DNA of 64,000 bases from a virus (lineage: Duplodnaviria; Heunggongvirae; Uroviricota; Caudoviricetes): the IMG/VR virus record IMGVR_UViG_3300005688_000042. The stretch is one strand, 5' to 3'. The notes beneath the pieces were generated by a model. The model did no database searches, was not told the origin of the DNA, and was given only the letters and a program-made list of their open reading frames with translations. The position numbers and the translations under genes were made by a program. Each line of letters begins with the position of its first letter. Within the stretch, counting starts at the first letter, position 1. Positions 7,190 through 58,425 of the stretch are shown here, piece by piece.

Positions 7190-7268
7190 TAAGTAAAGAG
7201 GGTGTCATTTATAACTCTTCTCATAAAATGATCTTTCTAAAACAAAACAAAAAAAAAAGGATTGTAAA

Positions 7269-7523
7269 ATGGCAAAGAAAAATAGCTGTAGCTGTGCTGC
7301 TGTATCAGCAGATGATGACGGTTCATTGTATGTCATTATGGATGTTAATAATGGTGAACTTGTAGCAGAAGCAATTGAATTCAATGAAATTGAAGATGAA
7401 GTTCAAAGATATTTGGACGAAAATGAGTATACCGAAGATGATGTAGACTTTATAGTTTACAAGGCAACTTCAATTGAAATTGAAATTAGTACTAAGCCAA
7501 AAATTACGATTAAGCGTTATTGA
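7269..7523 (+). CDS. hypothetical acidic protein
   Basis: ORF track; GGATTG RBS. Confidence 0.45.
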   Translation: MAKKNSCSCAAVSADDDGSLYVIMDVNNGELVAEAIEFNEIEDEVQRYLDENEYTEDDVDFIVYKATSIEIEISTKPKITIKRY

Positions 7524-21189: not shown

Positions 21190-21756
21190 ATGAGAATAAA
21201 AATATCTGAATATGCAAAAATGAAAGGTGTGAGCCAGCGCACAGTATGGCGCTGGATCAAAAATAACGAACTACAAATAGAACATACACAAACTGGCAGG
21301 GTTCGCATCTTACTTGATGTCAATAAAGAGACAAAAGTCGCTGTTTATGCCCGAGTTTCGAGTACAGAAAACAAAGATAATCTTGATAGACAAAAAGATC
21401 GAGTTGTGTCTTATTGCAATGCCAAAGGATACAAAATAGAGAAGATTGTCACAGAAATTGGTTCTGGTTTAAATGACAACAGACCAAAACTTGAGTCGCT
21501 TTTAATAGATAAAGACATTGACTTGATTGTTGTGGAACACAAAGATCGATTAGCCCGTTTCGGCACCAATTACATCGAGAAATTGCTGGCTGTTTCTGAC
21601 AGAAAGATTGAGGTCATCAATCCGGTTCAGGACGAAAAAGAAGATTTAATGCAAGATTTCGTGTCACTTGTCACATCTTTTACAGCCCGGTTGTATGGAT
21701 TGCGTAGGTCCAAGCGACAGACCGAAAAGCTGATCCAATCCTTGGAAGCTGCATGA
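21190..21756 (+). CDS. tnpA: IS607-type TnpA: MerR-like HTH + serine recombinase (resolvase) domain
   Basis: KMKGVSQRTVWRW HTH; catalytic VYARVSS...RQ. Confidence 0.7.
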   Translation: MRIKISEYAKMKGVSQRTVWRWIKNNELQIEHTQTGRVRILLDVNKETKVAVYARVSSTENKDNLDRQKDRVVSYCNAKGYKIEKIVTEIGSGLNDNRPKLESLLIDKDIDLIVVEHKDRLARFGTNYIEKLLAVSDRKIEVINPVQDEKEDLMQDFVSLVTSFTARLYGLRRSKRQTEKLIQSLEAA

Positions 21757-22982
21757 AAGCTAGACGTGTAGAAAAGCATGCCATATGTCGCACAAGTCAT
21801 TATTTTAGTGACTTGTGTGATCTGACTCACAAGTCCAAAAACTTGTATAATGCATCTTTGTATGCCATTCGTCAGCATTTTTTCTCCACAAAAACATACA
21901 TCGGCTATTCAAAATTAGCTGGTGATTTCGCAAAAACTAATATAGATTACCAGCAATTACCTAGAAAAGTGTCACAACAGACCTTAAAATTGGTTGATCA
22001 AAATTTTAGATCATTCTTTGCTTTGTTGAAAGCAAAGAAAAATGACAAGGTACGTATACCAAATTACCTAGACAAATCAGGTAAATATGTGACAATTTTC
22101 ACTAATCAGGCATTATCTTTCGTTAAACCTGGATATGTAAAATTATCTGGTTATGACATCTTTATAAAGACAGAAAAAACAGATATACAACAGGTTAGAG
22201 TTGTTCCGAGAAGCAATCATTTTGATATAGAAGTGATATATTTGACAGATATAGAAGACAAAAGAAGTGACAATAGTCGTTATTTGTCCGTTGATATCGG
22301 TTTAAGTAATTTAGTAGCAACAGCGTCAAATGTCATGAAACCATTTTTAATAAATGGAAAACCATTGAAAGCTATAAACCAATATTATAATAAAAGAAAA
22401 GCAGAACTACAATCAAAATTAGGAGACAAAAGAAAGACAAGTAATAGAATCAACGCCATTTCTAGAAAAAGAAATGACAAAATTCGTGATTATTTACATA
22501 AAGCAAGTACGTGGCTTATTAATCAATTAGATTTCAACCAAATAAACACCTTAATAATCGGTGAAAATAAAGGTTGGAAACAAGAGATAAACATCGGAAA
22601 GAAAAATAATCAAAATTTTGTGTCAGTGCCATTCAATAAATTGAAACAAATGTTGACATATAAAGCCGAATCAAGAGGAATTAATGTCATTTGTCAGGAA
22701 GAGAGCTATACATCAAAGGCATCATGTTTGAGTAATGATATGATTCCGACATATGGAGAGAAGACGGATGACATGAAATTTTCTGGATATAGAAAAACCA
22801 GAGGAATTTATAAAGACAAATGTCTTGATTTAGAAATAAATGCAGATGTCAATGGCGCATATAATATTATGAGAAAAGCAGTCGGAGATGTAAAAATTGA
22901 TCCGATAGAGGCATGTAGTTGGCCCTTGTCAGTGAAAATTTCACTTGACACAAAACCTAAGTTATGTCATTATTGGCATTGA
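21753..22982 (+). CDS. tnpB: TnpB (OrfB) RuvC-like protein; C-terminal zinc finger degenerate
   Basis: RuvC-I VDIGLSN, RuvC-II IIGENKGW, RuvC-III NADVNGAYNI; both CxxC pairs lost (CLSND, CLDLE). Confidence 0.65.
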   Translation: MKARRVEKHAICRTSHYFSDLCDLTHKSKNLYNASLYAIRQHFFSTKTYIGYSKLAGDFAKTNIDYQQLPRKVSQQTLKLVDQNFRSFFALLKAKKNDKVRIPNYLDKSGKYVTIFTNQALSFVKPGYVKLSGYDIFIKTEKTDIQQVRVVPRSNHFDIEVIYLTDIEDKRSDNSRYLSVDIGLSNLVATASNVMKPFLINGKPLKAINQYYNKRKAELQSKLGDKRKTSNRINAISRKRNDKIRDYLHKASTWLINQLDFNQINTLIIGENKGWKQEINIGKKNNQNFVSVPFNKLKQMLTYKAESRGINVICQEESYTSKASCLSNDMIPTYGEKTDDMKFSGYRKTRGIYKDKCLDLEINADVNGAYNIMRKAVGDVKIDPIEACSWPLSVKISLDTKPKLCHYWH

Positions 22983-27400: not shown

Positions 27401-27479
27401 GCGGGGTTATCTTCTAACTGGCGAAGAAAATTCACTGTCGATGAATGAAATATCGGTTCGAATCCGTTTAACCCCGCCA
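27401..27479 (+). tRNA. tRNA-Asp (anticodon GUC), CCA encoded
   Basis: 7-bp acceptor, anticodon stem ATTCA/TGAAT with loop cuGUCga, T-loop TTCGAAT; D-arm register ambiguous. Confidence 0.5.
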
Positions 27480-27486
27480 TTCTTCT

Positions 27487-28296
27487 TTAAGATTTACAGA
27501 ATCTATTATGATTTCCCGCATACTGCCCGCCACATTTTTGAGAACAAAATTTCTTACGGTCAGAAGTAACTTTAAACTCTGTACCACAATTAGCACATCC
27601 CTTAAATTCAATTACGACATCATCATATAATTCAAAAAATCTGTTTCGGTGTAATCCAGTCTTGTTTTCAACATATTCAAATATCTCTTGTAAATCTTGT
27701 TTATATTTTATGGTCACCAAACCGTTTGTTCCTGATAATTTGTAAGTGTCTATATTTCTAAAATAATTCTTTATTTCTATGATTTTACCATTGACTAAAA
27801 AGTCGGGAAAAAATTTGAAGTGGTCATTGCGATCAGGGTCATAATAGTCGAAATATTTTCCATATCTTTCAATATTATTACCGTGATCTAAGTTGTATAT
27901 TACAAAAGCTAATTCATAAGTAGAATCGCAATATATGCCTTGGTATTTTCCAGACTTACCTCTGGTAGAGCCTAGACGAACGCCTCCCATTTTTACACCA
28001 TCATATAATCCGTTTTTCCAATAATTGATTGTCAATTGTGATCTTGCTTTATGGTAACATTCATCAGAACACGTTTTTCTATATCGCCGATGTTGATATT
28101 GCGCGTTACAGATTATGCATGTTATTATTTTAAGTGATCTGCTTAGTTTATGGTTTTCAGACATTTTTCGTTTTGTTTCTTCACTATGTTTTCTTCTACT
28201 GTTATTATATGAAGCGGCACACGATTGATTACAGAATTTACTTCTTGAGTCATTTGTGGTAAACTCTTTACTACAGTATAAACATGTTTTAATCAT
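27487..28296 (-). CDS. putative PD-(D/E)xK-type endonuclease with three Cys4 zinc ribbons (candidate homing endonuclease)
   Basis: CLYCSKEF...CNQSC, CIICNAQ...CSDEC, CANCGTEF...CSQKC; core YCDSTYE...FFPDF...EIK. Confidence 0.4.
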   Translation of the reverse strand: MIKTCLYCSKEFTTNDSRSKFCNQSCAASYNNSRRKHSEETKRKMSENHKLSRSLKIITCIICNAQYQHRRYRKTCSDECYHKARSQLTINYWKNGLYDGVKMGGVRLGSTRGKSGKYQGIYCDSTYELAFVIYNLDHGNNIERYGKYFDYYDPDRNDHFKFFPDFLVNGKIIEIKNYFRNIDTYKLSGTNGLVTIKYKQDLQEIFEYVENKTGLHRNRFFELYDDVVIEFKGCANCGTEFKVTSDRKKFCSQKCGGQYAGNHNRFCKS

Positions 28297-29173: not shown

Positions 29174-29449
29174 ATGAACTATAGCCAATTCCCACCGTGG
29201 CAATCTATGGATACTGCTCCCAAGGACAGAGATATTCTTATTTTATGGCAATTCACTAATCATAGTGATAACCGATATAATTGTAAACAAGTAGGTATAG
29301 GATATTTTAATGGTATCTTCGAAGAACATCATCCGGGCAGTGGATTCTGGAATGGATATATTGTAGGTGGGCATGTCACAACTAGATCAAATAATTGTAA
29401 ACCAATCGCATGGATGGAATTACCACCAACTGACGTGGAAGAAAAATGA
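29174..29449 (+). CDS. DUF551-like phage protein
   Basis: W.SMDTAPKDRDILI motif. Confidence 0.45.
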   Translation: MNYSQFPPWQSMDTAPKDRDILILWQFTNHSDNRYNCKQVGIGYFNGIFEEHHPGSGFWNGYIVGGHVTTRSNNCKPIAWMELPPTDVEEK

Positions 29450-29613
29450 AAACACGTAGATTTAGTCGTCGTTGCATGTGCTACTATTGCACTGGCTCCG
29501 TATTAGAGTATAGAGAAAAAACTGCCCTAGAAAAATACAGAGATTCTCTTGAAGAATATGAATTATTATTGATTCATAAACAAGAAGATAATTCGGAATA
29601 TGAAAATATATAA
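29446..29613 (+). CDS. small hypothetical protein (55 aa)
   Basis: Hand translation MKTRRFSRRCMCYYCTGS... Confidence 0.3.
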   Translation: MKTRRFSRRCMCYYCTGSVLEYREKTALEKYRDSLEEYELLLIHKQEDNSEYENI

Positions 29614-29729
29614 ATATCCATATATGTTATTCATAAGGGGATATAATCATTACTACAAGCATTCTTTCGTTAGGCCAAACTTCTGCATATTCTGATTCAT
29701 TTGTTGTTTCCGAGGGTTCTTCGGTATTA

Positions 29730-29957
29730 GTGTGCATATATACTGGCGCAGACCCTCTTCAAAATGAAACTGCTACATTAAAAATTCAACGAATGAATAA
29801 TTTAGGAATTTTTGATGATGCATTTGTGGCTGGTGTGGGGCAGCTTATTTTAACTGAAAAAAATTTATGTGTCGCGATAGATATCGTTGGTACATATAGG
29901 GTATACCGCCCTAACATATCATATTTTGGTACGGATATTGGAGTACAAATAAATTAA
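29730..29957 (+). CDS. truncated paralogue of the tail-fibre N-terminal domain
   Basis: TYRVYRPNISYFGTDIGVQ resembles EYKILRPDITAFDIDIGIE of 30005..31792. Confidence 0.35.
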   Translation: MCIYTGADPLQNETATLKIQRMNNLGIFDDAFVAGVGQLILTEKNLCVAIDIVGTYRVYRPNISYFGTDIGVQIN

Positions 29958-30004
29958 TTTATTTTATCACATGATATAAATATACAAAATATCATGGATA
30001 ATTT

Positions 30005-31792
30005 ATGTCAACTGTTCTATTAACCGCTGGAAGGACTAAAACACTAACATCGTCAATCATTGTTGGCGAGAACGAAGTGTTACAATTAACCATTTTCAGT
30101 CCTACTGTGAACATTCCGAAGGATATTCCTCTTTTTAGAGTTAAAAGAAAAAATGTTCTCGATATTTACGAATCATTTTACTTAAATGGTGTCGTAGCTA
30201 TGAGTGGTAGTGCATACTCATTAACAATATCATATCCGGGTGAATATAAAATACTTCGCCCAGATATTACTGCTTTTGACATTGATATAGGAATTGAATA
30301 CGATAAATTTTCAGCAGGCGATGCTGGCGCAGTAGGCTGGGATGATATAACAGACAAGCCCGCTACCTTCCCAGCAACAGCGGGTGGCGCAGACACACAG
30401 ATTCAGTTCAACAACGCTGGCGCACTTGCCGGCGACTCAGGGTTTACTTACAACACGACTAACAAGACTGTAGCGCTAGGCGGCGGTGTCCTTACTGCTA
30501 GTAACCCTGTTCTTAATCTTGCGCAGACTTGGAATAACGCTGCGGTTACGTTTGAGGGCATCAAACTCAACGTGACGAATACCGCTAGCGATGTGCTGAG
30601 CAGGTTCGCTACATTTAGTGTGGATGGATCAGATTTTGTCCGCATACTGAGGCGCGGGGCTATCGTATTTCCTACGTCACCCGGAGTGCAAGATCCCGGT
30701 GTTGCTGGCATCGGCAACTACGGAGGTACGCTCACTATGTGGAGCGGCTCCGGGACGCGCATGATCAGTATATCTACTACGGATATAAATGTAGTAAGCG
30801 CTAGTGCGTCTCTATCTTTCAGCACGGGCACAGCTCTTTTCAGGGATGCCGCTGGGATACTTGCGCAACGTAGTGGTGTTACCACCCAAACTTCCCGCAT
30901 TTACAATACCTATACCGATGCCAGCAACTACGAGCGTTTGGCACTCATTCCCGGCGCCACATCCGGTTGGATGCAGATCGCTGCGCAGAGTGCGGGTACT
31001 GGCACCGCTAACATCAACGTCGCACTGACTCCTGCGGGTACAGGCGCTTTGTCTGCGCAGGTTCCGGATAGCACCACGGCGGGTGGTAATGCGCGCGGGA
31101 CGAATGCAGTTGATTGGCAGACAAGCACTCGCACTCTCGCTACGCAGGTCGCTTCCGGCGCATGGGCGACATGCGCAGGGGGATTCAGAAACACTGCCTC
31201 AGGTTCAACTTCTGTCGTCGCTGGCGGTAATACAAACATAGCAGGAGGACAAACTTCTGCTGTTGGTGGTGGGTATGCAAACTTGGCATCTGGTCCGCTG
31301 TCGTGGATTCCCGGAGGATCGACGGCCACTACGCGCCTGCTATATGGCGCAGGCGCGTATAGTGCTGGTCAGCGTGCGGCATTAGGCGACGCGCAGGTTA
31401 TAGTACAGCCAGTCCGCATTACGACCAGCGCAGCATCCGCAACAACGCTCACGGCGGACGGTGGCGCCGAATCCGCCACGAATGTGATGGTGTTGCCAAT
31501 TAACTCTGGCGCAGATTTCGAAGCGCGGGTTGTTGCGGTGCATGCGTCTGGCGCCGCTGCTGGATCGTGGAAGATCGAAGGTACTGCACGCCGGGGAGCT
31601 AGCGGCAATGCAATAATCGTTGGCACTAACACGGTTACTACCAAGGGTTTAGATGCTGCTTTAGGCACACCAACGATCAATGTAGTACCGGCAACGGGTG
31701 CGGGTGCGGGTGCAATCGTAATCCAAGTAACTCCTGCCAACGCAACGACAACTTATTGGGTTGGTCGAGTCGAACTGATTCAAGCAGCATAA
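30005..31792 (+). CDS. tail-fibre / receptor-binding-like protein, Gly/Ala/Thr-rich, GC-rich
   Basis: ITDKPATFPATAGG resembles the tail-fibre KPxTFPP repeat; composition differs strongly from the flanks. Confidence 0.55.
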   Translation: MSTVLLTAGRTKTLTSSIIVGENEVLQLTIFSPTVNIPKDIPLFRVKRKNVLDIYESFYLNGVVAMSGSAYSLTISYPGEYKILRPDITAFDIDIGIEYDKFSAGDAGAVGWDDITDKPATFPATAGGADTQIQFNNAGALAGDSGFTYNTTNKTVALGGGVLTASNPVLNLAQTWNNAAVTFEGIKLNVTNTASDVLSRFATFSVDGSDFVRILRRGAIVFPTSPGVQDPGVAGIGNYGGTLTMWSGSGTRMISISTTDINVVSASASLSFSTGTALFRDAAGILAQRSGVTTQTSRIYNTYTDASNYERLALIPGATSGWMQIAAQSAGTGTANINVALTPAGTGALSAQVPDSTTAGGNARGTNAVDWQTSTRTLATQVASGAWATCAGGFRNTASGSTSVVAGGNTNIAGGQTSAVGGGYANLASGPLSWIPGGSTATTRLLYGAGAYSAGQRAALGDAQVIVQPVRITTSAASATTLTADGGAESATNVMVLPINSGADFEARVVAVHASGAAAGSWKIEGTARRGASGNAIIVGTNTVTTKGLDAALGTPTINVVPATGAGAGAIVIQVTPANATTTYWVGRVELIQAA

Positions 31793-31823
31793 ATATCAAT
31801 TAGACTAATAGGGATATACACAC

Positions 31824-32183
31824 ATGAAAATTACTACGGATGAGTTTGAAGTCGAAGGTTCTTTTGTCGCAAGGCAGACTTATAAAGAACCAACGTCTAC
31901 CAACTCTCACACTTTTGGCCCAAGTGATGTAAACAAGTGCGTAAGGTTTACGGATGCTGGAGCGAACAGCGCTATATTTCCTGACACTTTAACCGCTGGA
32001 ATGGGCGGCTTGATTATGCGAGCCGTTGGAGCTGGGGTCATCACTTGGTCAGTGACGGGATCAATGGTCATAACCCCTGATGCTGCGTCTACTGGACACA
32101 CAGGAAGTGCTGCTGACCCATCATTCCTATGGTGGGAATGTGATGGAACAAACTCCGTGATCATTGGAGGAAGTACAGCGTGA
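31824..32183 (+). CDS. hypothetical protein in the GC-rich fibre module
   Basis: ORF track; GGGATA RBS. Confidence 0.45.
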   Translation: MKITTDEFEVEGSFVARQTYKEPTSTNSHTFGPSDVNKCVRFTDAGANSAIFPDTLTAGMGGLIMRAVGAGVITWSVTGSMVITPDAASTGHTGSAADPSFLWWECDGTNSVIIGGSTA

Positions 32184-32932
32184 TTAAACGCGGCGGCAGG
32201 TTCTTACAACGGTCTAATGGTAGCTTGGACCTATCATCTAATTTAGTTCTTTCACTTGATCTTGAAGAGGTTAGTGGGGACGCTATTGATCAAAGTATTA
32301 GTGAGTATGATTTCATTGATGTGAATACAGTGGAATCCGCCGCCGGAGCAACGCCCGGATACGGGTCACGCTTGTTTACACCAGATAACTCGGAGCATCT
32401 CTATCTGCCAAGTTCAGGAACATCAAATGTAAATATTTTAGATAATGAATGGGCCATGCACTTTTGGGCCAAGCGAAACGCAACTGGCGCCCGCATCATT
32501 TTTGCCAAATCACCGAGTACTGTGGTCGCTACTGCTACCGCAAGAGCATTCATTATTTACTTTTCTTTGTCGACTTTGATCTTTACTGTTGGGAGATCTG
32601 TCGCTGCTGATGGCGCTGTATCGGTTTCTGCTAATGTACCGATGAGTGAATGGATTCCTGTGTTATGTTGGCACGATCCAAATGCAGATGTAATTGGAGT
32701 GAAAATCGGCACGGATGCGGCTGTGACAACCACTTTAGTTGGAGGCGCACGAGCCGGTAGCTCATCTGACGTCAGGATCGGATCGACATCCGTAACCCCC
32801 GGCTCTTATCTTGACGCAAATCTTGCAGCTTTGCGAATCTGGCGAGGCGCTGGTGTCATCAATCAAATAGTCAATCCTGAAGTAATCAATTTTCTAAACG
32901 CAAGACAACGAAGACACACGGAGTTAGTATGA
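32180..32932 (+). CDS. hypothetical protein, possibly lectin/LamG-like jelly-roll (fibre-associated)
   Basis: ORF track; GC-rich; fold assignment is a guess. Confidence 0.35.
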   Translation: MIKRGGRFLQRSNGSLDLSSNLVLSLDLEEVSGDAIDQSISEYDFIDVNTVESAAGATPGYGSRLFTPDNSEHLYLPSSGTSNVNILDNEWAMHFWAKRNATGARIIFAKSPSTVVATATARAFIIYFSLSTLIFTVGRSVAADGAVSVSANVPMSEWIPVLCWHDPNADVIGVKIGTDAAVTTTLVGGARAGSSSDVRIGSTSVTPGSYLDANLAALRIWRGAGVINQIVNPEVINFLNARQRRHTELV

Positions 32933-33435
32933 AAATAGTAAACACAATAACTGGCGGTAGAACTACGCTGCAACAATTACTTCGAACGTTTCCACGTATC
33001 GGATCAGTAGCAAATCCCGCGCAAGGCATCCGCACAGTCTGGGATAATCCCCCAACCGATGAGCAGTTAGCGGCGGTAGGCTATCAATATGTTTTGGAAG
33101 TAGACCCTCCAGAATTTGGACCTGATGAACAATTGAGCAATGGACCAGATGCCCTAATAAATGGCAGATGGACCCAGACATGGGTTGTCGAAGAACTTGC
33201 CGTGCCAGAGGAAGTGGACACTATAGCATTCAAATTGACATTACATGATCTCAATCTACTTCCCTCTGTGCAGGGTTATGTAGATACGCTTTCTCCGGTG
33301 GAACAAATCTATTGGCAACACAGATCAACGATACGTCGCGATTCTGATTTTATTGAGTCGGGAAGAATCGCCCTTGGATTAACTCAGGAACAAGTTGATG
33401 ACTTGTTTCATGCCGCTAAAGCCAGAGCAGTGTGA
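32929..33435 (+). CDS. hypothetical protein (fibre module)
   Basis: ORF track. Confidence 0.45.
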   Translation: MKIVNTITGGRTTLQQLLRTFPRIGSVANPAQGIRTVWDNPPTDEQLAAVGYQYVLEVDPPEFGPDEQLSNGPDALINGRWTQTWVVEELAVPEEVDTIAFKLTLHDLNLLPSVQGYVDTLSPVEQIYWQHRSTIRRDSDFIESGRIALGLTQEQVDDLFHAAKARAV

Positions 33436-33495
33436 TATGATTAGGTTGGTCGCCTTGAATTGATAAATACCTTTATAAACTAAATAGGAATAAAA

Positions 33496-33888
33496 ATGAC
33501 AATTACGGTTACTTTAACAAATAACAGACACATAGCTGGCGCAAATGCGGCTTATATGATGACAATCCCTGAAGATGGAGATTCACCGTACCAATCTGTA
33601 CAGGAATATGTACAAAATGCAATCGAACGTGTAGCTGAATCATGGGCTGACTCAGCGAAGGTTGATCAAATTTCAGTATTTGAGTTTGTTGAACGTATTG
33701 GCGCGGAGCGATTCGCCGCGATAACAGCAGCGGCACCGAACGACCCTATCATCGCAGAAATGTTGGTCACGCTTCGCGCCCGACAGACCGTGAGATTAGG
33801 ATCGCCAGATGCAATCAATGGTATTGCATACCTCGTCAGTGTTGGTCTATTGACACAGCAACAAGCTGACACCGCGTTGGCGTATTGA
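33496..33888 (+). CDS. hypothetical protein (fibre module)
   Basis: ORF track; AGGAATAAAA RBS. Confidence 0.45.
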   Translation: MTITVTLTNNRHIAGANAAYMMTIPEDGDSPYQSVQEYVQNAIERVAESWADSAKVDQISVFEFVERIGAERFAAITAAAPNDPIIAEMLVTLRARQTVRLGSPDAINGIAYLVSVGLLTQQQADTALAY

Positions 33889-33948
33889 TCATCATTGACA
33901 TCTAACCTCAATTCCCTTATGATAGCTTAAACATAGGGGATGAAGGAC

Positions 33949-34110
33949 ATGAAATTATTTTGGGTGTTGGGGTGGGATCAATATTATCCAAATATTGACA
34001 ATTTTTTAGCCTCATTCGATAATGAAGCTGATGCGCAAGAATATATCTCTCAACAAAATAAGTATTACGATTTTTACAAAATCGTGAATATCTCGGATAG
34101 GCTATAAGAT
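33949..34110 (+). CDS. small hypothetical protein (53 aa)
   Basis: Hand translation MKLFWVLGWDQYYPNIDNF... Confidence 0.3.
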
Positions 34111-34419
34111 ATGTACGCACCACCTAATTCAGAGCTTGTGTTCATTGTGCAGGATATTGAAACTGACAGATATCGATTAATTGAGTGTGATGGTAAGATT
34201 GCTGCCAAACTTAATGAATATGATTGTTTAGTTGATTCACTTGATGTCGCCGCAAGTGAGCCATCACATTTCGCAGCATTCATTACGACTATTCGACTAC
34301 AATACGGCGTAGATTGTAAAATAAAGGTTTGTGCTGGTGAGTATAGTCAGTATGGTTGTATTATTTATTTCGAGGTCACGAACCTCAACCGTAATAAAAA
34401 TGTTACCTATATCACCTAA
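34111..34419 (+). CDS. hypothetical protein
   Basis: ORF track. Confidence 0.45.
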   Translation: MYAPPNSELVFIVQDIETDRYRLIECDGKIAAKLNEYDCLVDSLDVAASEPSHFAAFITTIRLQYGVDCKIKVCAGEYSQYGCIIYFEVTNLNRNKNVTYIT

Positions 34420-35615: not shown

Positions 35616-35774
35616 ATGATGATAAAATTAGTAGATTTCGCAAAGACGCAAGGTGTATGTTACAGAACAGCTTACAATTGGTTCCACCTTGGCTACATCG
35701 AAGGTGCATACCAAACGGCATCACGCACTATATTGGTGCCGAAAGACGCCAAAGTTAAGAGAAAAAGCGAATAA
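35616..35774 (+). CDS. truncated IS607 TnpA: MerR-like HTH only (52 aa)
   Basis: Hand translation MMIKLVDFAKTQGVCYRTAYNWFHLGYIEG... parallels the TnpA N-termini of copies 1 and 3; no resolvase domain; AAAGGA RBS. Confidence 0.45.
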   Translation: MMIKLVDFAKTQGVCYRTAYNWFHLGYIEGAYQTASRTILVPKDAKVKRKSE

Positions 35775-35781
35775 AATCGCC

Positions 35782-36891
35782 GTGAATCTTGCCCACAAAA
35801 TTCAGTTAAAACCCAACAAAGAACAGAAGCAGATGCTGGCGCGAGCCGCAGGCTGCGCCAGATTCACTTACAATTGGGCTTTGGCCGAATGGAATAAGCA
35901 ATATATGGCAGGCGAGAAACCGTCAGCATTAAAATTGAAAAAGCAATTCAATTCCATTAAAAAGCAGGAATTTCCATGGATATACGATTCACCAAAAGAT
36001 GCAAATCAACAACCATTTACAAATTTACAAAGTGCTTTCAAAGGTTTCTTCGACAAACGAACCGCGTATCCGCAGTTTAAGAAAAAGTACAAACGCGATT
36101 CATTTTATGTCTCAAACGATCAATTTCACATAACTGATAATATGATTAAACTTCCACTAATTGGAAAAATTAAATTGGAAGAGACATTGAGATTTGAAGG
36201 TAAGATCATGTCTGCTGTGGTCAGTCGAAAAGCTGATAAATGGTTTATATCAATTGCGGTAGAGATGAATGATTATGGTAAAGCTAGAACATCAGATAAC
36301 ACCATAGCAATTGATTTTGGCATCAAAACTTTCGCGGTTGATCAAAATGGCGCATCTTTCGATGCACCAAAACCATTGAAAAACAAGCTTCAAAAGCTGA
36401 AAAGGTATCAGAGAATTTGTTCAAAGAGAAAAGATGGAAGTCAAAACAAAAAGAAACAAAGATGTAAAGTAGCAAAAATACATAAAGAAATCAGTGACTT
36501 ACGTCACGATTTCACACACAAATTTACAACTCAAATCTGTCGCGAAAACCAAACGATAATTATAGAAGATTTGAATTTGAAAAGCTGGAGCAAAATGTTT
36601 GGGAAGTCAGGAATTGATGGTGGCGTGGGCGAAGCCCGACGCCAACTCAAATACAAGTCATTGATTTATAACAACAATTTAGTTGTAATAGATAAATGGG
36701 CACCGACTTCCAAATCATGTTCTAGTTGTGGTAGCTATAAATCAGACTTGAAATTGAGTGATCGAATCTTCTGCTGTACGGATTGTGGTCATAAAATGGA
36801 CAGAGATTGGAATGCTGCCAAAAATATTTATGTCTCAGGAATGAGACAACTAGGGATGGCTTGTCCCGAAGTTACGCCTTTGGACATCTGA
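35782..36891 (+). CDS. tnpB: TnpB (OrfB), apparently intact; probable GTG start
   Basis: RuvC-I IDFGIKT, RuvC-II IIIEDLN, zinc finger CSSCGS...CTDCGH, RuvC-III DRDWNAAKNI; no in-frame ATG after the HTH ORF stop. Confidence 0.6.
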   Translation: MNLAHKIQLKPNKEQKQMLARAAGCARFTYNWALAEWNKQYMAGEKPSALKLKKQFNSIKKQEFPWIYDSPKDANQQPFTNLQSAFKGFFDKRTAYPQFKKKYKRDSFYVSNDQFHITDNMIKLPLIGKIKLEETLRFEGKIMSAVVSRKADKWFISIAVEMNDYGKARTSDNTIAIDFGIKTFAVDQNGASFDAPKPLKNKLQKLKRYQRICSKRKDGSQNKKKQRCKVAKIHKEISDLRHDFTHKFTTQICRENQTIIIEDLNLKSWSKMFGKSGIDGGVGEARRQLKYKSLIYNNNLVVIDKWAPTSKSCSSCGSYKSDLKLSDRIFCCTDCGHKMDRDWNAAKNIYVSGMRQLGMACPEVTPLDI

Positions 36892-52156: not shown

Positions 52157-52735
52157 ATGAAACTTCGACAATGGGCAAATAAACAAGGGATTTCCTACTT
52201 GACAGCGCTTCGCTGGTTCAAGGCAGGTAAAATTCCAAATTCAACTCAATTCCCATCTGGCACCATCATAATACAAGATGAGCTGCCTGTCAACACGGAT
52301 GAAAATAAATCAGTACATATCTATGCCAGAGTTTCTTCACATGAGAAGAAAGATGATCTAACCAGACAAGCCCAAAGATGTGTTGAATTTGCTAATGCCA
52401 ATGGATACGAAATAATCTCAGTTACAAAAGAAATTGCTTCTGGCATGAATGATAAGCGACCAAAATTAATTAAATTGATTGAACAGAAACCAAAACATAT
52501 CATTGTTGAGCACAAGGACAGATTGACCAGATTTGGATTCAATTACTTTGATTTATTACTTCCTATGATTGGTTGTAAATTAACTGTTATGAATAGAGAT
52601 CAAGAAGAGCATGCGGATTTAATGAAAGATTTAGTTTCTGTTATTACATCATTTTGTTGTAAATTATATGGTCTGCGCAGAGCGCAGAACAAGAAACAAA
52701 AGATCCAACAAATATTGGAAGACGAAAATGTTTAA
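52157..52735 (+). CDS. tnpA: IS607-type TnpA serine recombinase with MerR-like HTH
   Basis: NKQGISYLTALRWF HTH; IYARVSS...RQ. Confidence 0.7.
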   Translation: MKLRQWANKQGISYLTALRWFKAGKIPNSTQFPSGTIIIQDELPVNTDENKSVHIYARVSSHEKKDDLTRQAQRCVEFANANGYEIISVTKEIASGMNDKRPKLIKLIEQKPKHIIVEHKDRLTRFGFNYFDLLLPMIGCKLTVMNRDQEEHADLMKDLVSVITSFCCKLYGLRRAQNKKQKIQQILEDENV

Positions 52736-53783
52736 AAGAGCTATTAAGTTGAAATCATATGCAACAGAAGCAAAGCAAAATAAAGTCCTTGCTTTGATTA
52801 GTCGCTATAGATGTCAAGTTAATATGTTTATAGATTACATCTGGAACAACAAAGAAACAGCAAAATTAGATGCTAAAACATTGAAATCTATAGATAAAGT
52901 TCAAGATTTATCCGAAAGATATAAATCCAATGCATTGAAACAGGCACTTCAAATTTGTAAAAGCGAAAAGAACAAATCCAAACCAGATTTCAATGGTTAT
53001 CCGGTGCTAGATGCAAAGTTCGTGTCTATTGACACGAACAAATCTTCAAAAGAATTTGATTTGTGGATAAAATTATCAACATTGAAATCTGGAAGACGAA
53101 TAGAAATACCAACAAAGAAGCATGCACATTTAAACAAATGGCTTAAAACTGGTACATTGATACAAGGCTGTGAGCTTCGCCCAGACGGTTTCATCGTCTG
53201 GGTAGAGGCGAACCCACCTGAAAAGAAAAATAGCTTGAAGGTCGGTGTAGACATCGGAATGAACAAGCTATTGACCACTAGCTATGGTGAAAAATTAGGA
53301 ACTGATTTTAATCGAATCAATGATAAAATTCTAAGGAAGAAAAAGAACAGTAAGAATTACAAAAGAGCCATAGCAGAAAAGAAAAACTATATAAATCAAT
53401 CAGTTAACTTGCTTCCGTGGACAGAAATGGAAGTGCTTTGCTATGAAAACATTAAAAATTTGAAGAAAGGAAGTACAAAAAGAAATAAACAAACAAGACA
53501 AAAACAGCAACATTGGAGCTATAGACAAGTTATAGAAGCTATGAAAATGAAGGCCCAAGCTAACCGTGTTAGCTTGGTCTATGTTAATCCGGCTTACACT
53601 TCTCAGAAATGTTCCGCTTGTGGTAATATTGCTGCATCCAGTCGATATCTAGAAAATTATTGTTGCATCAGTTGCGGTCATACACAAGACGCAGATGTAA
53701 ATGCAGCAAAAAATATTCTACACAAAGGACTAGACTGGATAACGAGCTTAGAGTCCGTTAAGTCAAAAAGTGCTATCATATGA
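52728..53783 (+). CDS. tnpB: TnpB (OrfB), intact RuvC motifs and zinc finger (start trimmed to MFKRAIKL, ATGTTTAA overlap)
   Basis: VDIGMNK, YENIKNL, YTSQKCSACG...CISCGH, DADVNAAKNI. Confidence 0.7.
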   Translation: MFKRAIKLKSYATEAKQNKVLALISRYRCQVNMFIDYIWNNKETAKLDAKTLKSIDKVQDLSERYKSNALKQALQICKSEKNKSKPDFNGYPVLDAKFVSIDTNKSSKEFDLWIKLSTLKSGRRIEIPTKKHAHLNKWLKTGTLIQGCELRPDGFIVWVEANPPEKKNSLKVGVDIGMNKLLTTSYGEKLGTDFNRINDKILRKKKNSKNYKRAIAEKKNYINQSVNLLPWTEMEVLCYENIKNLKKGSTKRNKQTRQKQQHWSYRQVIEAMKMKAQANRVSLVYVNPAYTSQKCSACGNIAASSRYLENYCCISCGHTQDADVNAAKNILHKGLDWITSLESVKSKSAII

Positions 53784-53864: not shown

Positions 53865-54038
53865 TCTTTCCTACCATCCCCGACCTCCATCCCATTTTAC
53901 CACATATAATATAACTCTGTCTTGTTGTTTTTTCGCAACATTCATAAACCGTTCATGAAGAAAGAAAACGGTTTTGTTCATTTACCGTTCATCGTACTGT
54001 GCTATGATTCATCCATACAAACCAACTGGAGAAAAGAA

Positions 54039-56261
54039 ATGCTTCTGAACGAACGTCGCAGTGAGGGCGCAGTGTCCAACATCCCGCAAGACTTGCGTGG
54101 ACAGTTTACCATTGCCGCTAATGGCAAGGCGTTTGAGATTCTTTCTAGCACACTGTATCAGGATAAGATCGGTTCCATCGTGCGTGAGATTTCTTGTAAC
54201 GCTTATGATGCCCATAAGGAAGCTGGCACTCCTGATCTCCCGTTTGAGATTCATCTGCCGTCTATTATGGAACCGTATTTTTCTGTAAAGGATTATGGTA
54301 TTGGTATGGACACTCACACTGTTGAGAATGTCTTTACTAGCCTATTCGTTTCTACCAAGGAAAACAGTAACGATTCCGTTGGCGCATTCGGTCTTGGTTC
54401 CAAGACTCCATTTGCTTATACTGATACCTTCAACGTGGTGGCAATCAAGGATGGTATGTCGCGTACCTTCACGATGTATAAGCGTGAGGATGGTACTCCT
54501 ATTCACAGTTTGCTTCTGGAAAAGGAAACTACTGAGCCTAATGGTGTTGAGATTATCATGCCGGTTAATAACCTTGGTGATCGTTCGGCATTTGCTAGGG
54601 CTATCTCTCGCCAATTGCATTTCTTTAAGGTTCGCCCGATTATCAAGGGTGGCGATCATTCTGTTGAATGGCAGGATGAACCTACTGATAATGATATTCT
54701 GGTTAAGTATCATAATATTACTATGTTTAAGACTGGCGATTATCGTCGTGGTGTAGTGGCGATTATGGGTCCGGTTGGATATGAATTGAATTTCCAGATT
54801 TTGAAAGAGAAACTTCCCAAGCATGAAAAGGTTATCTCTTGGTTGTCTAATCGTGTTATTCGAATTTACTTTAATATCGGTGATGTTTCCGTAACTCCTT
54901 CGCGTGAGAATCTTTCTTATGATTCTCGCACCATTAAGGCTTTTGATAAGGTTTTCGATGGTCTAATCGAAGAGATTACTGCTACCTTTGAAAAGCAATT
55001 CTCTGGATTCAAGACTCCTTGGGAACGTGCGCAGTTTATCGCAGAATCCAATGATGACGTTGGCAATATCATTGTAATCAAGAACGATAAGGATAATGAT
55101 GGTGTTGTGCGATTCACTGGTCGATATGCCTACTTTGATGTTCAATCGGTTAAAGAGGCTATGGGCGCGAATGCTTGCCATCTCCAGATTATGAGTGTCC
55201 AGCAATTGTCTGGCAATTCTAGGTCTACTTATGCTCAGAATCGCGTGGCTATTAATGAGTTTAATAACAGCCGCAAGTTTATTCTGATTGCGAATGATTG
55301 CAAGTATATGAAGCGTCGGTATATTGCTATCCATAATCAGAATCAGTATTCTACCTGTTGGGTAGTTGTGCCGAGTGATCTGGAAAAGAGTCTGGATATT
55401 CAAAAGGTTTTTGAAGATTCTGGTATTACCACTAAACTGTTGTCCGAGTTTGATCCGGTTGATGTTTCTAGCTCATATTCGTTTGTCAAGGCTCATGGGT
55501 ATATGGTTCCGTTTGAAGAGTTCAAGACTTCTAATCAGGATTTCTGTAAGACTCGTTATAACTGGACCAAGATTGTTGATAAGACTGTAATTGAACCGGC
55601 ATTCTATGTCGTGTCTGATAATGGGGTTATCAATGATTATAAGATTCTGACCAAGTTCAAGGAACTGGTTTCCCTTGGTCTAGTTCCCAATGAATATCAG
55701 ATTCCGATTTACGCTTTCCCCGTTAAGACCGCTGAAAAGATTGCAAAGGATGAAAATTGGATTCTGTTGAATAATTATATTAATGAGCATTTCAATGCTG
55801 ATGCAATTGCTAAACTGTATGCCGATGTATGGGAGAGTGCCGCTTATTTGAATGCTTTCAATTATATCAGGGATAATTCGGATGCGCGTTATCAATTGGT
55901 TCTGAATAATACCAAAGTTAAACAGTGGTTGCTTGATGTTGAATTGACCCTGTTTAGTAAGACTGAAGTTGCATCGCAATATGATTCTGTTATGCTTAAG
56001 CAGATTCTGCAACAGCGTCCGATTGGTAAGTTTAATCATATTGAGGCTACCATTCGGGATTATGTTACTGATAATATCAGGAAGCTGGTGGACCATTATC
56101 CACTGTTGAGGCATATTCGCCACAGTTATTATTTTACTGTTGACGCACAATCAAAGGCTGAATTTGCGGAATATATGGATATGTATGATGCCAAGCATGG
56201 TGCGCCACTTCTTCCGCCTGTAGACTTGGAAGTGCTCGAAAAGTTGTTGACACCGAGCTAA
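54039..56261 (+). CDS. rIIA: rIIA-like protein (GHKL ATPase-like N-domain)
   Basis: KAFEILSSTLY / CNAYDAH / DYGIGMD / GAFGLGSKT match the T4 rIIA N-terminus and Bergerat-fold boxes; start trimmed to MLLNERR with GGAG RBS. Confidence 0.7.
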   Translation: MLLNERRSEGAVSNIPQDLRGQFTIAANGKAFEILSSTLYQDKIGSIVREISCNAYDAHKEAGTPDLPFEIHLPSIMEPYFSVKDYGIGMDTHTVENVFTSLFVSTKENSNDSVGAFGLGSKTPFAYTDTFNVVAIKDGMSRTFTMYKREDGTPIHSLLLEKETTEPNGVEIIMPVNNLGDRSAFARAISRQLHFFKVRPIIKGGDHSVEWQDEPTDNDILVKYHNITMFKTGDYRRGVVAIMGPVGYELNFQILKEKLPKHEKVISWLSNRVIRIYFNIGDVSVTPSRENLSYDSRTIKAFDKVFDGLIEEITATFEKQFSGFKTPWERAQFIAESNDDVGNIIVIKNDKDNDGVVRFTGRYAYFDVQSVKEAMGANACHLQIMSVQQLSGNSRSTYAQNRVAINEFNNSRKFILIANDCKYMKRRYIAIHNQNQYSTCWVVVPSDLEKSLDIQKVFEDSGITTKLLSEFDPVDVSSSYSFVKAHGYMVPFEEFKTSNQDFCKTRYNWTKIVDKTVIEPAFYVVSDNGVINDYKILTKFKELVSLGLVPNEYQIPIYAFPVKTAEKIAKDENWILLNNYINEHFNADAIAKLYADVWESAAYLNAFNYIRDNSDARYQLVLNNTKVKQWLLDVELTLFSKTEVASQYDSVMLKQILQQRPIGKFNHIEATIRDYVTDNIRKLVDHYPLLRHIRHSYYFTVDAQSKAEFAEYMDMYDAKHGAPLLPPVDLEVLEKLLTPS

Positions 56262-56314
56262 GACTGAGTTATGATTACCACACTGAAAACACACACCCAC
56301 TAGGAGTAACAAAC

Positions 56315-57403
56315 ATGGCAACGATTCCCTTCATCTCCACCGAAAATGCTGTTACGGTCGCCGTCGATGGCGCAGCATACACGATTCCAAAGACTGCACC
56401 TAACTATAAGGATGTTAAGTCTGCACTGGTTCGTGGCGAGACCGATGTATCCATTTTTAAGCGTCTTCTGAACATCCGCGAGTATGTTGCACAGTTGACC
56501 GAGGGTCGCGCTGAACTGGTCGATGGTAAGTTGTATTTTGATGGTGGCCCGATGCGTGGTGCTCTTGCTGATCGTGTCGCTACCATGTTCGCAGAAGGTT
56601 TCGGGGTGGCTCCACTGTTGCGCTTCCTGAACCGTGTTGCTGCCAATCCGCGTCTGGACAAGGATAGTAAACTGTATTCGCCTAAGTTTGAAGATGAACT
56701 GTATTTGTTCCTTGAAGGTGGCGATTGCCCGATTACTGAGAATGGCACGTTCCTCGCTTATAAGATGGTGAATTCCGATTTTACGGATATTTACACTGGT
56801 AAGATGGACAATAGTCCGGGCACTCTGGTATCTTTGAAGAGTCCGGAGAATGTTGATCCTGAACGTATGAATACCTGCTCGTATGGTCTGCATTTTGCAT
56901 CGCTGAATTATGTTCTGAATGGTGGATATGGTTCAGGTTCGCATGGTCATCGTCTGGTAGTGGTTGAAATTGATCCCGCTGATGTTATCTCAATTCCTTA
57001 CGATTACGGTAACTCCAAGGGTCGTGCATGGAAGTATACTATCCTCCGTGAGATTGAATGGAATGATCGTATCAAGCCGAATTTCATTTCCACCAACGAT
57101 TGTAACGGTTGGGATGATGCGGAAGATTTTGATGAAGATGATTATGTAGATGATTATGAAGACGATGCAGACGAAGAACAAGGTAATCTGGAGTGGATGA
57201 AGGATGCCGAAGGTCGAGAAGATACTGAGAATGAAGTTGTAAACGTGGTCGCTGTTGGAGTGTTGGAGGACAACGAAGTCCGTGGCATCCGAGCATCGCT
57301 GGCGAGGGGTGAGACTCTGGCAGCAATCGCAAGGTTCTATCAGGTTAGCCCGCGAACTGTAGCACGCATCCGCGATGGTGAAACCTACTCTCACGTAAAG
57401 TGA
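56315..57403 (+). CDS. rIIB: rIIB-like protein with extra acidic tract and C-terminal HTH
   Basis: ENGTFLAYKMV, MDNSPGTLVSLKSP, CSYGLHFASLNYV, VVVEIDPADVISIPYDYGNSKGRAWKYTIL parallel T4 rIIB; directly follows rIIA. Confidence 0.7.
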   Translation: MATIPFISTENAVTVAVDGAAYTIPKTAPNYKDVKSALVRGETDVSIFKRLLNIREYVAQLTEGRAELVDGKLYFDGGPMRGALADRVATMFAEGFGVAPLLRFLNRVAANPRLDKDSKLYSPKFEDELYLFLEGGDCPITENGTFLAYKMVNSDFTDIYTGKMDNSPGTLVSLKSPENVDPERMNTCSYGLHFASLNYVLNGGYGSGSHGHRLVVVEIDPADVISIPYDYGNSKGRAWKYTILREIEWNDRIKPNFISTNDCNGWDDAEDFDEDDYVDDYEDDADEEQGNLEWMKDAEGREDTENEVVNVVAVGVLEDNEVRGIRASLARGETLAAIARFYQVSPRTVARIRDGETYSHVK

Positions 57404-58352: not shown

Positions 58353-58425
58353 GCCTCGGTAGCTTAGTGGCCTAAAGCGACTTTCTCTAAAATTGTGATC
58401 GTGAGTTCAAATCTCACCCGAGGCG
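58353..58425 (+). tRNA. tRNA with anticodon CUA (amber-suppressor-like); anticodon stem has two U-U mismatches
   Basis: Acceptor GCCTCGG/CCGAGGC disc G, D GCTT/AAGC, loop cuCUAaa, T-arm GTGAG-TTCAAAT-CTCAC; alternative registers pair worse. Confidence 0.4.

What the first reader, a model, noticed from the sequence alone, without database searches (positions are those of the whole stretch)
29730..33888. GC-rich tail-fibre/host-range module with a truncated N-terminal duplicate upstream
From about 30300 to 33900 the sequence is conspicuously GC-rich (Ala/Gly/Thr-rich proteins) against an AT-rich genome. The 595-aa ORF has a fibre-type KPATFPA motif. A 75-aa ORF just upstream repeats its N-terminal domain (TYRVYRPNISYFGTDIGVQ vs EYKILRPDITAFDIDIGIE). 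This looks like a recently acquired host-range cassette with a recombination scar.
Basis: seen in the sequence. Interest (0 to 1): 0.55.

Follow-up and report, generated by a model that had tools for sequence, protein, structure and literature searches.

The report
Mosaic fibre cassette in jumbo phage
A 4.3-kb accessory block in an AT-rich ~307-kb jumbo phage encodes a fibre that joins a native ~100-residue N-terminal domain (probably a docking domain) to a GC-rich, horizontally acquired adhesin-like shaft plus four accessory genes; this is ordinary phage fibre mosaicism, and the small gene upstream is an intact paralogue, not a truncated scar.

Summary
The GC-rich stretch is real: 0.44-0.62 against about 0.35 in the adjacent 10 kb. 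About half of the rise comes from an Ala/Gly/Thr-rich protein. The rest is synonymous: GC at four-fold sites is 0.46 in fibre codons 103-595, 0.25 in codons 1-102, and 0.29 on average in 34 other window genes.

The jump falls at codon 102 of the 595-aa ORF. At that same codon, homology to a related phage (L016/L017) stops. That relative keeps the N-domain (74% identical) but carries a different distal part.

Residues 126-595 are 47-51% identical to proteins of 49-55% GC phage contigs. They contain YadA/UspA1-type beta-roll repeats. Homologues of p119 and p130 lie directly after fibre homologues elsewhere.

A syntenic 315-kb relative lacks the whole block, about 29610-33917.

The "75-aa truncated duplicate" is an intact 102-aa gene with a conserved ATT start (dN/dS 0.12). 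It belongs to a family of mostly stand-alone beta-sandwich proteins of about 100 aa. The two copies are 23% identical, so the duplication is old and is not a scar.

Verdict: a mosaic, horizontally assembled fibre cassette. This is a known kind of event, with an undescribed N-terminal domain family. Whether the fibre sits on the tail, neck or head is unknown.

The parts
29635..29640 (+). Shine-Dalgarno-like AAGGGG, 8 nt upstream of the ATT start of gene A
   Evidence: Read from the sequence. The same AAGGGGATATAA..ATTACTA context is conserved in L016.
29649..29957 (+). Gene A: an intact 102-aa stand-alone beta-sandwich protein with an ATT start.
   Evidence: It aligns end to end with 25 further family members, mostly 102-104 aa (Xoosp13_188, RAS14 and others). 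It is 74% identical to the L016 orthologue, with dN/dS 0.12. Codons 1-27, upstream of the GTG, have pN 0.13 against pS 0.48. There is no canonical start codon between the TAA at 29634-29636 and 29730.
30005..31792 (+). Gene B: a chimeric 595-aa fibre/adhesin-like protein
   Evidence: The identical protein occurs on 18 metagenomic contigs, the longest 306,759 bp.
30005..30310 (+). Gene B residues 1-102: an AT-rich N-terminal beta-sandwich domain, an old paralogue of gene A and the presumed docking module
30311..30379 (+). Gene B residues 103-125: a GC-rich linker carrying GWDDITDKPATFPA (the motif lies at 30353-30376). The recombination junction lies at its 5' edge.
   Evidence: DNA homology to L016 (about 80%) ends at 30309, and GC jumps there. 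None of the 120 best fibre homologues has KP..FP. An 18-residue stretch matches Brucella phage ORF09 at 89% identity (E 1e-3). Weaker matches fall mostly in proteins annotated minor tail, tail-collar-fibre or head-fibre.
30380..31789 (+). Gene B residues 126-595: the acquired fibre core. It comprises a shaft, YadA/UspA1-type beta-roll repeats (about 31145-31318) and a C-terminal jelly-roll knob (about 31331-31789).
31824..32183 (+). p119: fibre-associated accessory gene
   Evidence: 67% identical to the gene directly downstream of the closest fibre homologue in L007, L008 and L020.
32180..32932 (+). p250: a possible virion structural or lectin-like protein. Its start overlaps the stop of p119.
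   Evidence: phrog_8510 'virion structural protein', E 6.7e-7. No Pfam, PDB or phage-collection match.
32929..33435 (+). p168: accessory protein. Its start overlaps the stop of p250.
   Evidence: The C-terminal ~75 residues match phrog_6034 (E 1.6e-8) and Acidovorax phage Acica gp19, the last gene of that phage's fibre block before the tail sheath gene.
33496..33888 (+). p130: fibre-associated accessory gene and the last GC-rich gene
   Evidence: 52-55% identical to genes directly downstream of fibre homologues in L021 and L041, and 40% in L043.
29571..33917 (.). Maximal extent of the block missing from the syntenic 315-kb relative. The minimal extent is 29610-33917. It lies between p55 (29446-29613) and p55b (33940-34107).
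   Evidence: In L105, positions 7198-7293 match window 29470-29565, and positions 7301-7474 match window 33940-34113, so the two matches abut. Homology resumes at about 33918. No significant flanking repeats were found.

Best explanation
The block at about 29610-33917 is an accessory, horizontally assembled fibre cassette in a hyperplastic region of an uncultured, AT-rich, XacN1/Xoo-sp13-like jumbo myovirus.

Gene B is a chimera. Residues 1-102 are a lineage-native beta-sandwich domain, inferred to dock the protein onto the virion. After a short KPATFPA linker comes a distal part imported from higher-GC phages. That part probably forms a trimer and is built of a shaft, YadA/UspA1-like beta-roll repeats and a C-terminal jelly-roll knob.

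The four downstream genes came with the imported part or were gathered around it. Their likely roles are assembly helpers or distal fibre components (inferred).

Gene A, just upstream, is an intact stand-alone paralogue of the docking domain, not a remnant.

Shown: the composition shift, the junction at codon 102, the alternative distal part in a relative, the absence of the block from a syntenic relative, the intactness of gene A, and adhesin/fibre-type homology. Inferred: virion display, the docking role of the N-domain, a receptor-binding or host-range function, and the site of attachment (tail, neck or head).
For: Composition:
- GC and GC3 jump inside gene B.
- Four-fold GC of the distal part is 0.46. 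That is close to its homologues (0.49-0.58) and far from the window mean (0.29).
- The fibre-like distal part of the L017 orthologue has native-like four-fold GC (0.26).

Junction:
- About 80% nucleotide homology to L016 runs from about 29608 to 30309 and then breaks.
- The L017 orthologue continues with a collagen-like stretch and other repeats.

Possible donors:
- Residues 126-595 are 47-51% identical to proteins on phage contigs carrying SU10-type portal/adaptor and capsid genes (two of about 60 kb). One of these proteins lies within such a structural block.
- The 85 loci with fibre homologues (79 from IMG/VR, 6 metagenome contigs) have a median GC of 0.565.
- p119 and p130 homologues lie immediately after fibre homologues.

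Fibre nature:
- UspA1/YadA head repeats by profile search.
- Cyanophage Cy-LDV1 'putative tail fiber' hit.

Accessory status:
- The syntenic relative L105 lacks the block.

N-domain as a modular anchor:
- 148 clusters were found. In all but three repeat-type hits, every fused member carries the domain at its N-terminus (at residues 29-114, behind a leader, in P0224).
- The C-terminal partners include fn3, He_PIG Ig, GDPD, beta-propeller and beta-roll domains.
- Xoo-sp13, XacN1, RAS14 and CM1 each have one stand-alone copy and one fused copy.
- The L017 orthologue lies next to orthologues of XacN1 ORF382 and ORF383, which precede the fused giant ORF384.
- Remote ~95-aa homologues lie in head/neck morphogenesis modules of small phages in all three cases examined.
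Against: - No virion proteomics or structure places any family member on a particle. The XacN1 paper text does not mention ORF384 as a virion protein and reports no visible tail fibres (PMC5852040).
- The neighbourhood is non-structural: tRNAs, HNH, TnpB and small ORFs.
- Several close homologues of the fibre core carry signal-peptide-like N-termini and lie outside tail modules.
- The AF2 model of the shaft is poor (pLDDT 64), so the fold matches there are weak.
- The best homologues are only about 50% identical, so no donor is identified.
- rIIA and rIIB reach similar synonymous GC, so composition alone is not proof.
- The direction of the indel is not resolved. It could be an insertion here or a loss in L105.
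Confidence: 0.7

Rival explanations
1. Gene B is a native, vertically inherited fibre gene. The GC-richness is only a by-product of an Ala/Gly/Thr-rich protein or of high-expression codon usage, with no horizontal acquisition.
For: GC1 is 0.57 and GC2 is 0.61, so amino-acid composition explains much of the rise. rIIB and rIIA also have raised four-fold GC (0.43 and 0.39).
Against: - Four-fold GC doubles within one ORF at codon 102 (0.25 to 0.46, p 0.009).
- The compositionally similar distal part of the L017 orthologue keeps native four-fold GC (0.26).
- Homology to the relative stops exactly at the jump.
- The block is absent from a syntenic relative.
- The nearest homologues are in 49-55% GC phages.
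Confidence: 0.06
2. One reading: the upstream ORF is a truncated copy of the fibre N-terminus, left behind as a scar by the recombination that brought in the cassette.
For: The ORF as mechanically called is only 75 aa and lacks the first 27 residues of the domain. It lies 47 nt upstream of the chimeric gene.
Against: - The reading frame is open for 102 codons from a conserved ATT that follows AAGGGG.
- The 27 'missing' codons are conserved with pN 0.13 against pS 0.48.
- The product aligns full-length with a 102-104-aa family.
- The two copies are 23% identical and share no DNA repeat.
- The same tandem pair exists in L016, which has a different cassette.
- Stand-alone plus fused copies also coexist in Xoo-sp13, XacN1, RAS14 and CM1.
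Confidence: 0.04
3. Gene B is not a virion fibre. It is a moron-type product made in the infected cell, such as a surface or secreted adhesin or a superinfection-exclusion factor. In this reading the N-domain has a role other than docking to the particle.
For: - The cassette lies among non-structural genes and mobile elements.
- Close homologues P0003, P0006, P0007 and P0009 have signal-peptide-like N-termini and lie next to early or lysis genes.
- In Xoo-sp13-like phages the stand-alone gene follows phoH among metabolic genes.
- The top fold matches of the N-domain, XepA and YomS, are prophage proteins encoded beside lysis genes (their genomic location is from my own knowledge).
Against: - Gene B itself has no signal peptide.
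- The nearest homologue, P0004, lies within a block of structural genes downstream of the portal gene.
- Remote stand-alone homologues lie in head/neck modules of small phages.
- Fusion partners such as GDPD, Ig, fn3 and beta-propeller domains are typical of virion appendages.
Confidence: 0.15

Closest known systems
Mosaic tail-fibre genes of tailed phages (P2 H, Mu S, lambda stf, T4 gp37/38), with conserved N-terminal attachment parts and horizontally exchanged distal parts. From my own knowledge, e.g. Haggard-Ljungquist et al. 1992.
   Same: The N-terminal module is conserved among relatives. The distal part is swapped at a domain boundary. Accessory genes lie downstream. The imported part has a foreign composition.
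   Different: The N-terminal module is an undescribed ~100-aa beta-sandwich that also exists as a separate gene. The cassette lies outside any tail module. Attachment to the tail is not shown.
Heads of trimeric autotransporter adhesins (YadA, UspA1, CbpF, AtaA)
   Different: No coiled-coil stalk, no C-terminal membrane anchor and no signal peptide. The protein is phage-encoded, with a jelly-roll knob at its C-terminus.
XacN1 ORF384 and Xoosp13_343, with their stand-alone partners such as Xoosp13_188
   Same: The same N-domain family occurs as one stand-alone copy and one copy fused to a large variable protein. The L017 orthologue of gene B shares the metallophosphoesterase and papain-like protease neighbours of ORF384.
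   Different: In those phages the two copies are far apart and the fused protein is 1,796-2,823 aa, with GDPD or beta-propeller domains. Here the copies are in tandem, the fused protein is 595 aa, and its distal part is foreign and fibre-like.
XepA (PBSX) and YomS (SPbeta), PDB 6i56 and 6i5o
Hyperplastic regions and moron insertions of T4-type genomes
   Same: The block is present or absent between conserved small genes. It is surrounded by tRNAs, homing-endonuclease-like genes and TnpB genes.
   Different: No promoter/terminator signature above chance and no significant flanking repeats were found.

Membership tests
Phage fibre / receptor-binding protein with an exchangeable distal part | Fibrous, beta-rich, probably trimeric architecture | tested here: met
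Phage fibre / receptor-binding protein with an exchangeable distal part | N-terminal part conserved among relatives while the distal part differs | tested here: met
   74% identity over residues 1-102 with L016/L017, then unrelated sequence. The DNA break is at 30309.
Phage fibre / receptor-binding protein with an exchangeable distal part | Homologues encoded in structural/tail modules of other phages | tested here: inconclusive
   P0004 lies among structural genes downstream of the portal gene, and Cy-LDV1 g10 is annotated as a tail fibre. However, P0003 and P0006 lie outside tail modules and have signal-peptide-like N-termini.
Phage fibre / receptor-binding protein with an exchangeable distal part | Physically present on the virion and needed for adsorption | not testable with these tools
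   Needs proteomics, cryo-EM or genetics. The XacN1 paper text gives no evidence for the orthologous ORF384.
Trimeric autotransporter adhesin | C-terminal beta-barrel membrane anchor and N-terminal signal peptide | tested here: not met
   No Pfam family reaches its threshold on gene B. The C-terminus is modelled as a soluble jelly-roll. The N-terminus is the beta-sandwich domain.
Horizontally acquired genomic island | Deviant composition, including synonymous sites | tested here: met
   Four-fold GC is 0.417 against 0.307 (p 6e-8). Codons 103-595 of the fibre have the highest value of any gene tested.
Horizontally acquired genomic island | Absent from the syntenic site of a related genome | tested here: met
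   In L105 (IMGVR_UViG_3300048591_000147, 314,956 bp) the flanking genes are adjacent.
Horizontally acquired genomic island | Flanking repeats or an adjacent mobility gene that could explain the insertion | tested here: not met
   No flanking repeats. The similarity between the two flanks is marginal (p about 0.02-0.05). The nearest TnpB gene is 1.7 kb downstream and does not abut the block.
Xoosp13_188-like stand-alone beta-sandwich family (gene A) | About 102-104 aa, N-terminal M-[AT]-[TS]-S-I-L, and conserved PGTY[RK]V.RP[DN]I near the C-terminus | tested here: met
   Full-length alignment with 25 further family members. G79, Y81, R85, P86 and I88 are invariant. tblastn against Xoo-sp13 gives 36% identity, E 2e-15. 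The start codon is ATT rather than ATG.
XepA/YomS fold | Structural similarity clearly above generic beta-sandwiches, plus sequence relatedness | tested here: inconclusive

The most novel reading that the evidence does not exclude
The ~100-aa beta-sandwich would be a previously undescribed 'plug-and-play' docking system of XacN1-like jumbo phages. In this reading the stand-alone copy (gene A) and the copy fused to the N-terminus of a hypervariable protein occupy or build the same site on the particle, possibly the head or neck rather than the baseplate. Any distal module could then be displayed there: a fibre, a GDPD enzyme, a beta-propeller or Ig domains. The weak ATT start of gene A would set the ratio of bare to loaded subunits.
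Probability: 0.2. Interest if true: 0.55.

Novelty: new member of a known kind. Interest (0 to 1): 0.35.

Why it matters
This is a well-resolved example of fibre mosaicism in an uncultured jumbo phage. The junction is placed at codon 102 (within a few nucleotides of 30309), there is an internal compositional control, and two independent relatives bracket the event.

The more useful by-product is the N-terminal domain family. It is absent from Pfam and matches only one PHROG of unknown function. It occurs both as a small separate gene and at the N-terminus of the most variable large proteins of XacN1-like phages. That gives a concrete candidate for how these phages mount their appendages, and XacN1 was reported to lack recognisable tail-fibre genes.

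The case also shows that an ORF finder limited to ATG/GTG/TTG starts turned an intact gene into an apparent fragment.

Tried and rejected
- Near-identity DNA search of the region against GenBank phages: no match.
- Pfam on the six proteins: nothing above threshold.
- Sequence search of p119, p250, p168 and p130 against the PDB: nothing.
- p250 against the Laminin_G_3 protein downstream of the closest fibre homologue: no similarity. My guess that p250 is a LamG lectin is therefore unsupported.
- Word-indexed protein search with the 105-aa N-domain alone: no candidates. The search was wasted.
- IMG/VR scans with the N-domain, p119 and p250: no relatives. Whether the 315-kb relative carries genes A and B elsewhere therefore stays open, because the scans depend on exact patterns.
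- Promoter and terminator scan: at chance level.
- Flanking repeats: none. The apparent duplication of the target sequence at both ends is marginal (p about 0.02-0.05) and is not claimed.
- The idea that P0158 carries a polysaccharide lyase: not confirmed by Pfam, so dropped.
- XacN1 paper and its supplement: no statement that ORF384 or the small ORF is a virion protein.
- The context of P0172 (L101) was too short to be informative.


Full report
**What is in the sequence**

The window is AT-rich overall (0.367 GC). GC in the four 1-kb bins from 30001 to 34000 is 0.47, 0.54, 0.47 and 0.44, against 0.33-0.36 in the adjacent bins. In 200-nt windows, GC rises from 0.33 to 0.55 between 30100-30299 and 30300-30499. 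It peaks at 0.62 and returns to 0.33 at 33900.

Five co-directional genes lie in the GC-rich stretch:
- the 595-aa ORF, 30005-31792
- p119, 31824-32183
- p250, 32180-32932
- p168, 32929-33435
- p130, 33496-33888

Two pairs have overlapping stop and start codons. The motif DKPATFPA is at residues 117-124 of the 595-aa ORF.

**How much of the GC rise is real**

Residues 103-595 of the fibre are 17% Ala, 14% Gly and 13% Thr, with GC1 0.57 and GC2 0.61. Protein composition therefore explains much of the rise.

A synonymous signal remains. At four-fold degenerate sites:
- fibre codons 1-102: 0.25
- fibre codons 103-595: 0.46 (Fisher p 0.009)
- the other four genes: 0.33-0.41
- 34 other window genes: mean 0.287, sd 0.077
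- pooled island against pooled background: 0.417 against 0.307 (p 6e-8)

rIIB (0.43) and rIIA (0.39) come close, so composition alone would not be decisive.

Two controls help. Homologous fibre genes in other phages have four-fold GC of 0.49-0.58. The Gly/Ser/Ala-rich distal part of the orthologue in a related AT-rich phage (L017) has 0.26, which is native-like.

**The genome**

The identical 595-aa protein occurs on 18 metagenomic contigs, the longest 306,759 bp. The window carries rIIA, rIIB, T4-type RNA ligase 1, nine tRNAs, HNH-like genes and three TnpB-like genes. By rIIA, the nearest isolates are Xoo-sp13, XacN1, CM1 and RAS14, at 28-31% identity. This is an uncultured, distant member of the XacN1-like jumbo myoviruses.

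**The upstream ORF is intact**

The 75-aa ORF aligns with fibre residues 28-98 (23% identity, E 5e-9). Its frame is open from 29637. No ATG, GTG or TTG occurs before 29730. The residues encoded from ATT 29649 (ITTSILSLGQTS...) align with the fibre N-terminus and with Xoosp13_188 (MASSILSPGQTA...).

A profile search found 27 proteins, 23 of them 102-104 aa and stand-alone, on contigs of up to 320 kb. The full alignment shows invariant G79, Y81, R85, P86 and I88.

A closer relative, L016, has the same gene. The same AAGGGGATATAA..ATTACTA context precedes it. The gene caller again missed the start there.

Between the window and L016, gene A has dN/dS 0.12. The 27 codons upstream of the GTG have pN 0.13 against pS 0.48. 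Gene A is therefore a functional 102-aa gene, most likely starting at ATT, 8 nt after a Shine-Dalgarno-like AAGGGG.

**The junction**

L016 and L017 come from two separate assemblies (L016 a Logan assembly of SRR10036065, L017 the NCBI metagenome contig JACCDG010122380.1), evidently of the same or nearly the same phage. They carry gene A followed by a second gene. The first 102 residues of that second gene are 74% identical to those of gene B.

Nucleotide homology of about 80% runs from about 29608 to 30309 and stops after the codons for EY(D/N)KF. That is where GC jumps. Beyond this point the relative encodes GPEGETGPAGP, an unrelated segment, and NxASG repeats. The window instead encodes the KPATFPA linker and a different core.

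Synonymous divergence between the two lineages is near saturation (dS >= 1). The swap can therefore only be dated as later than an old split.

**Origin of the distal part and the downstream genes**

Residues 126-595 are 47-51% identical to P0003, P0004 and P0006. These proteins lie on phage contigs of 49-55% GC; the P0004 and P0006 contigs, of about 60 kb, also carry SU10-type portal/adaptor and capsid genes. P0004 sits within a block of structural genes downstream of the portal gene.

The 85 loci with homologues (79 from IMG/VR and 6 metagenome contigs fetched earlier) have a median GC of 0.565.

p119 is 67% identical to the gene directly after P0004. p130 is 52-55% identical to genes directly after fibre homologues in L021 and L041. 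p168 matches the last gene of the fibre block of Acidovorax phage Acica. p250 matches a PHROG annotated 'virion structural protein'.

The KPATFPA linker does not come from the same relatives. None of the 120 best homologues has KP..FP. Its best match is a Brucella phage protein (89% over 18 residues, E 1e-3). Weaker matches fall in proteins annotated minor tail, tail-collar-fibre or head-fibre.

**What the protein looks like**

A family profile hits the UspA1 head repeats (E 4.5e-18) and other trimeric-adhesin heads. Ten of 24 homologues match the LbR_Ice_bind beta-roll family.

- Kp9 tail fibre gp42, Acinetobacter phage tailspikes, phi29 gp12 and T4 gp9
- CbpF, UspA1, AtaA and YadA heads
- BclA/TNF-like jelly-rolls; I attribute these to the C-terminal knob, a placement that was not checked residue by residue

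There is no autotransporter membrane anchor.

**The whole block is accessory**

IMG/VR contig IMGVR_UViG_3300048591_000147 (314,956 bp; L105) is syntenic with window 25.2-41.6 kb at 55-97% amino-acid identity. Its orthologues of p55 (window 29446-29613) and p55b (window 33940-34107) abut and even overlap.

Everything from about 29571-29610 to about 33917 is missing there. That includes the AT-rich gene A and the N-domain of gene B.

Two nested events are therefore visible:
1. Gain or loss of the whole A-B-accessory module at this site.
2. Replacement of the distal part of gene B within the module.

No flanking repeats were found, and the similarity between the two flanks is marginal.

**The N-domain family**

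An exhaustive profile search found 148 clusters. Most are stand-alone proteins of 90-110 aa. Apart from three large proteins hit only by weak partial repeat matches, fused members carry the domain at the N-terminus (in P0224 at residues 29-114, behind a leader). The C-terminal partners include fn3, He_PIG Ig, Thr/Pro-rich linkers, GDPD, beta-propeller and beta-roll domains.

Xoo-sp13, XacN1, RAS14 and CM1 each have a stand-alone copy (directly after phoH where the locus was inspected: Xoo-sp13 and three related metagenomic contigs). Each also has a fused copy on a large protein: Xoosp13_343 is 1,796 aa and XacN1 ORF384 is 2,823 aa.

In L017 the gene B orthologue lies beside orthologues of XacN1 ORF383 (38% identity) and ORF382 (48%). 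In XacN1 these two genes immediately precede ORF384. Gene B is therefore the counterpart of that hypervariable protein.

Remote stand-alone homologues in small phages lie in head/neck morphogenesis modules in all three cases examined. This supports a role on the particle but does not prove one. It also leaves the site open: tail, neck or head.

The XacN1 paper reports no visible tail fibres and no fibre homologues. Its text does not list ORF384 among the virion proteins (PMC5852040).

**Verdict**

The horizontal-cassette reading is supported. The 'truncated duplicate / recombination scar' reading is wrong.

The event belongs to a well-known class, mosaic fibre genes exchanged at a domain boundary. 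The modest new elements are an undescribed N-terminal domain family that exists in stand-alone and fused forms, and a conserved ATT start.

Noticed in passing
window 58353-58425: A tRNA with a CUA anticodon, which reads the amber codon (ARAGORN calls it tRNA-Pyl). TAG terminates only 2 of 47 window genes (TAA 23, TGA 22). This may be a suppressor used for amber read-through or recoding.
   Followed up: partly
window 29649-29651; L016 8221-8223: Gene A appears to start at ATT, 8 nt after AAGGGG. The same context is conserved in a relative with about 80% nucleotide identity. Gene callers truncated the gene in both genomes.
   Followed up: yes
window 21190-22982, 35653-36891, 52157-53783: Three TnpB/OrfB_IS605-like genes. 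The first is paired with a Pfam-supported serine recombinase (IS607-type); the third follows an ORF with only weak tblastx resemblance to a recombinase. The 35653-36891 copy has no tblastx match in the syntenic relative L105.
   Followed up: partly
window 27487-28296 (-) and 59047-60720 (+): HNH/homing-endonuclease-like genes. One lies next to tRNA-Asp (27403-27479). The other (phrog_3339) lies between rIIB and RNA ligase 1. At the first position L105 carries a different 301-aa HNH ORF.
   Followed up: no
L017 106-2844: The gene B orthologue ends abruptly after SWIPGGS. It is followed by a 185-aa ORF, an IS607-like serine recombinase (1904-2464), and a 125-aa ORF that weakly resembles the fibre C-terminal knob (E 0.023). 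The fibre gene may be split by a mobile element.
   Followed up: partly
P0003, P0006, P0007, P0009 (L009, L011): Close homologues of the fibre core begin with signal-peptide-like sequences. They lie beside lysis or early genes rather than in tail modules.
   Followed up: no
window 29557-29609 and 33918-33958, against L105 7284-7320: The uninterrupted junction sequence of the relative resembles both flanks of the insert. This hints at a short duplicated or recombinogenic sequence. The left-hand match is only marginal (p about 0.02-0.05).
   Followed up: yes
window 53922-57403: rIIA (779 aa) and rIIB (362 aa) have raised GC3 (0.41 and 0.45). The rIIB ORF ends in an HTH/endonuclease-like tail (residues 301-361, phrog_6156).
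   Followed up: no
L001 6343-9333 (Xoo-sp13): In Xoo-sp13 the stand-alone family member is followed by a 996-aa Thr/Pro-rich 'mucin-16-like' protein. That protein lacks the N-domain. Three related metagenomic contigs (L013-L015) have no such gene there.
   Followed up: partly
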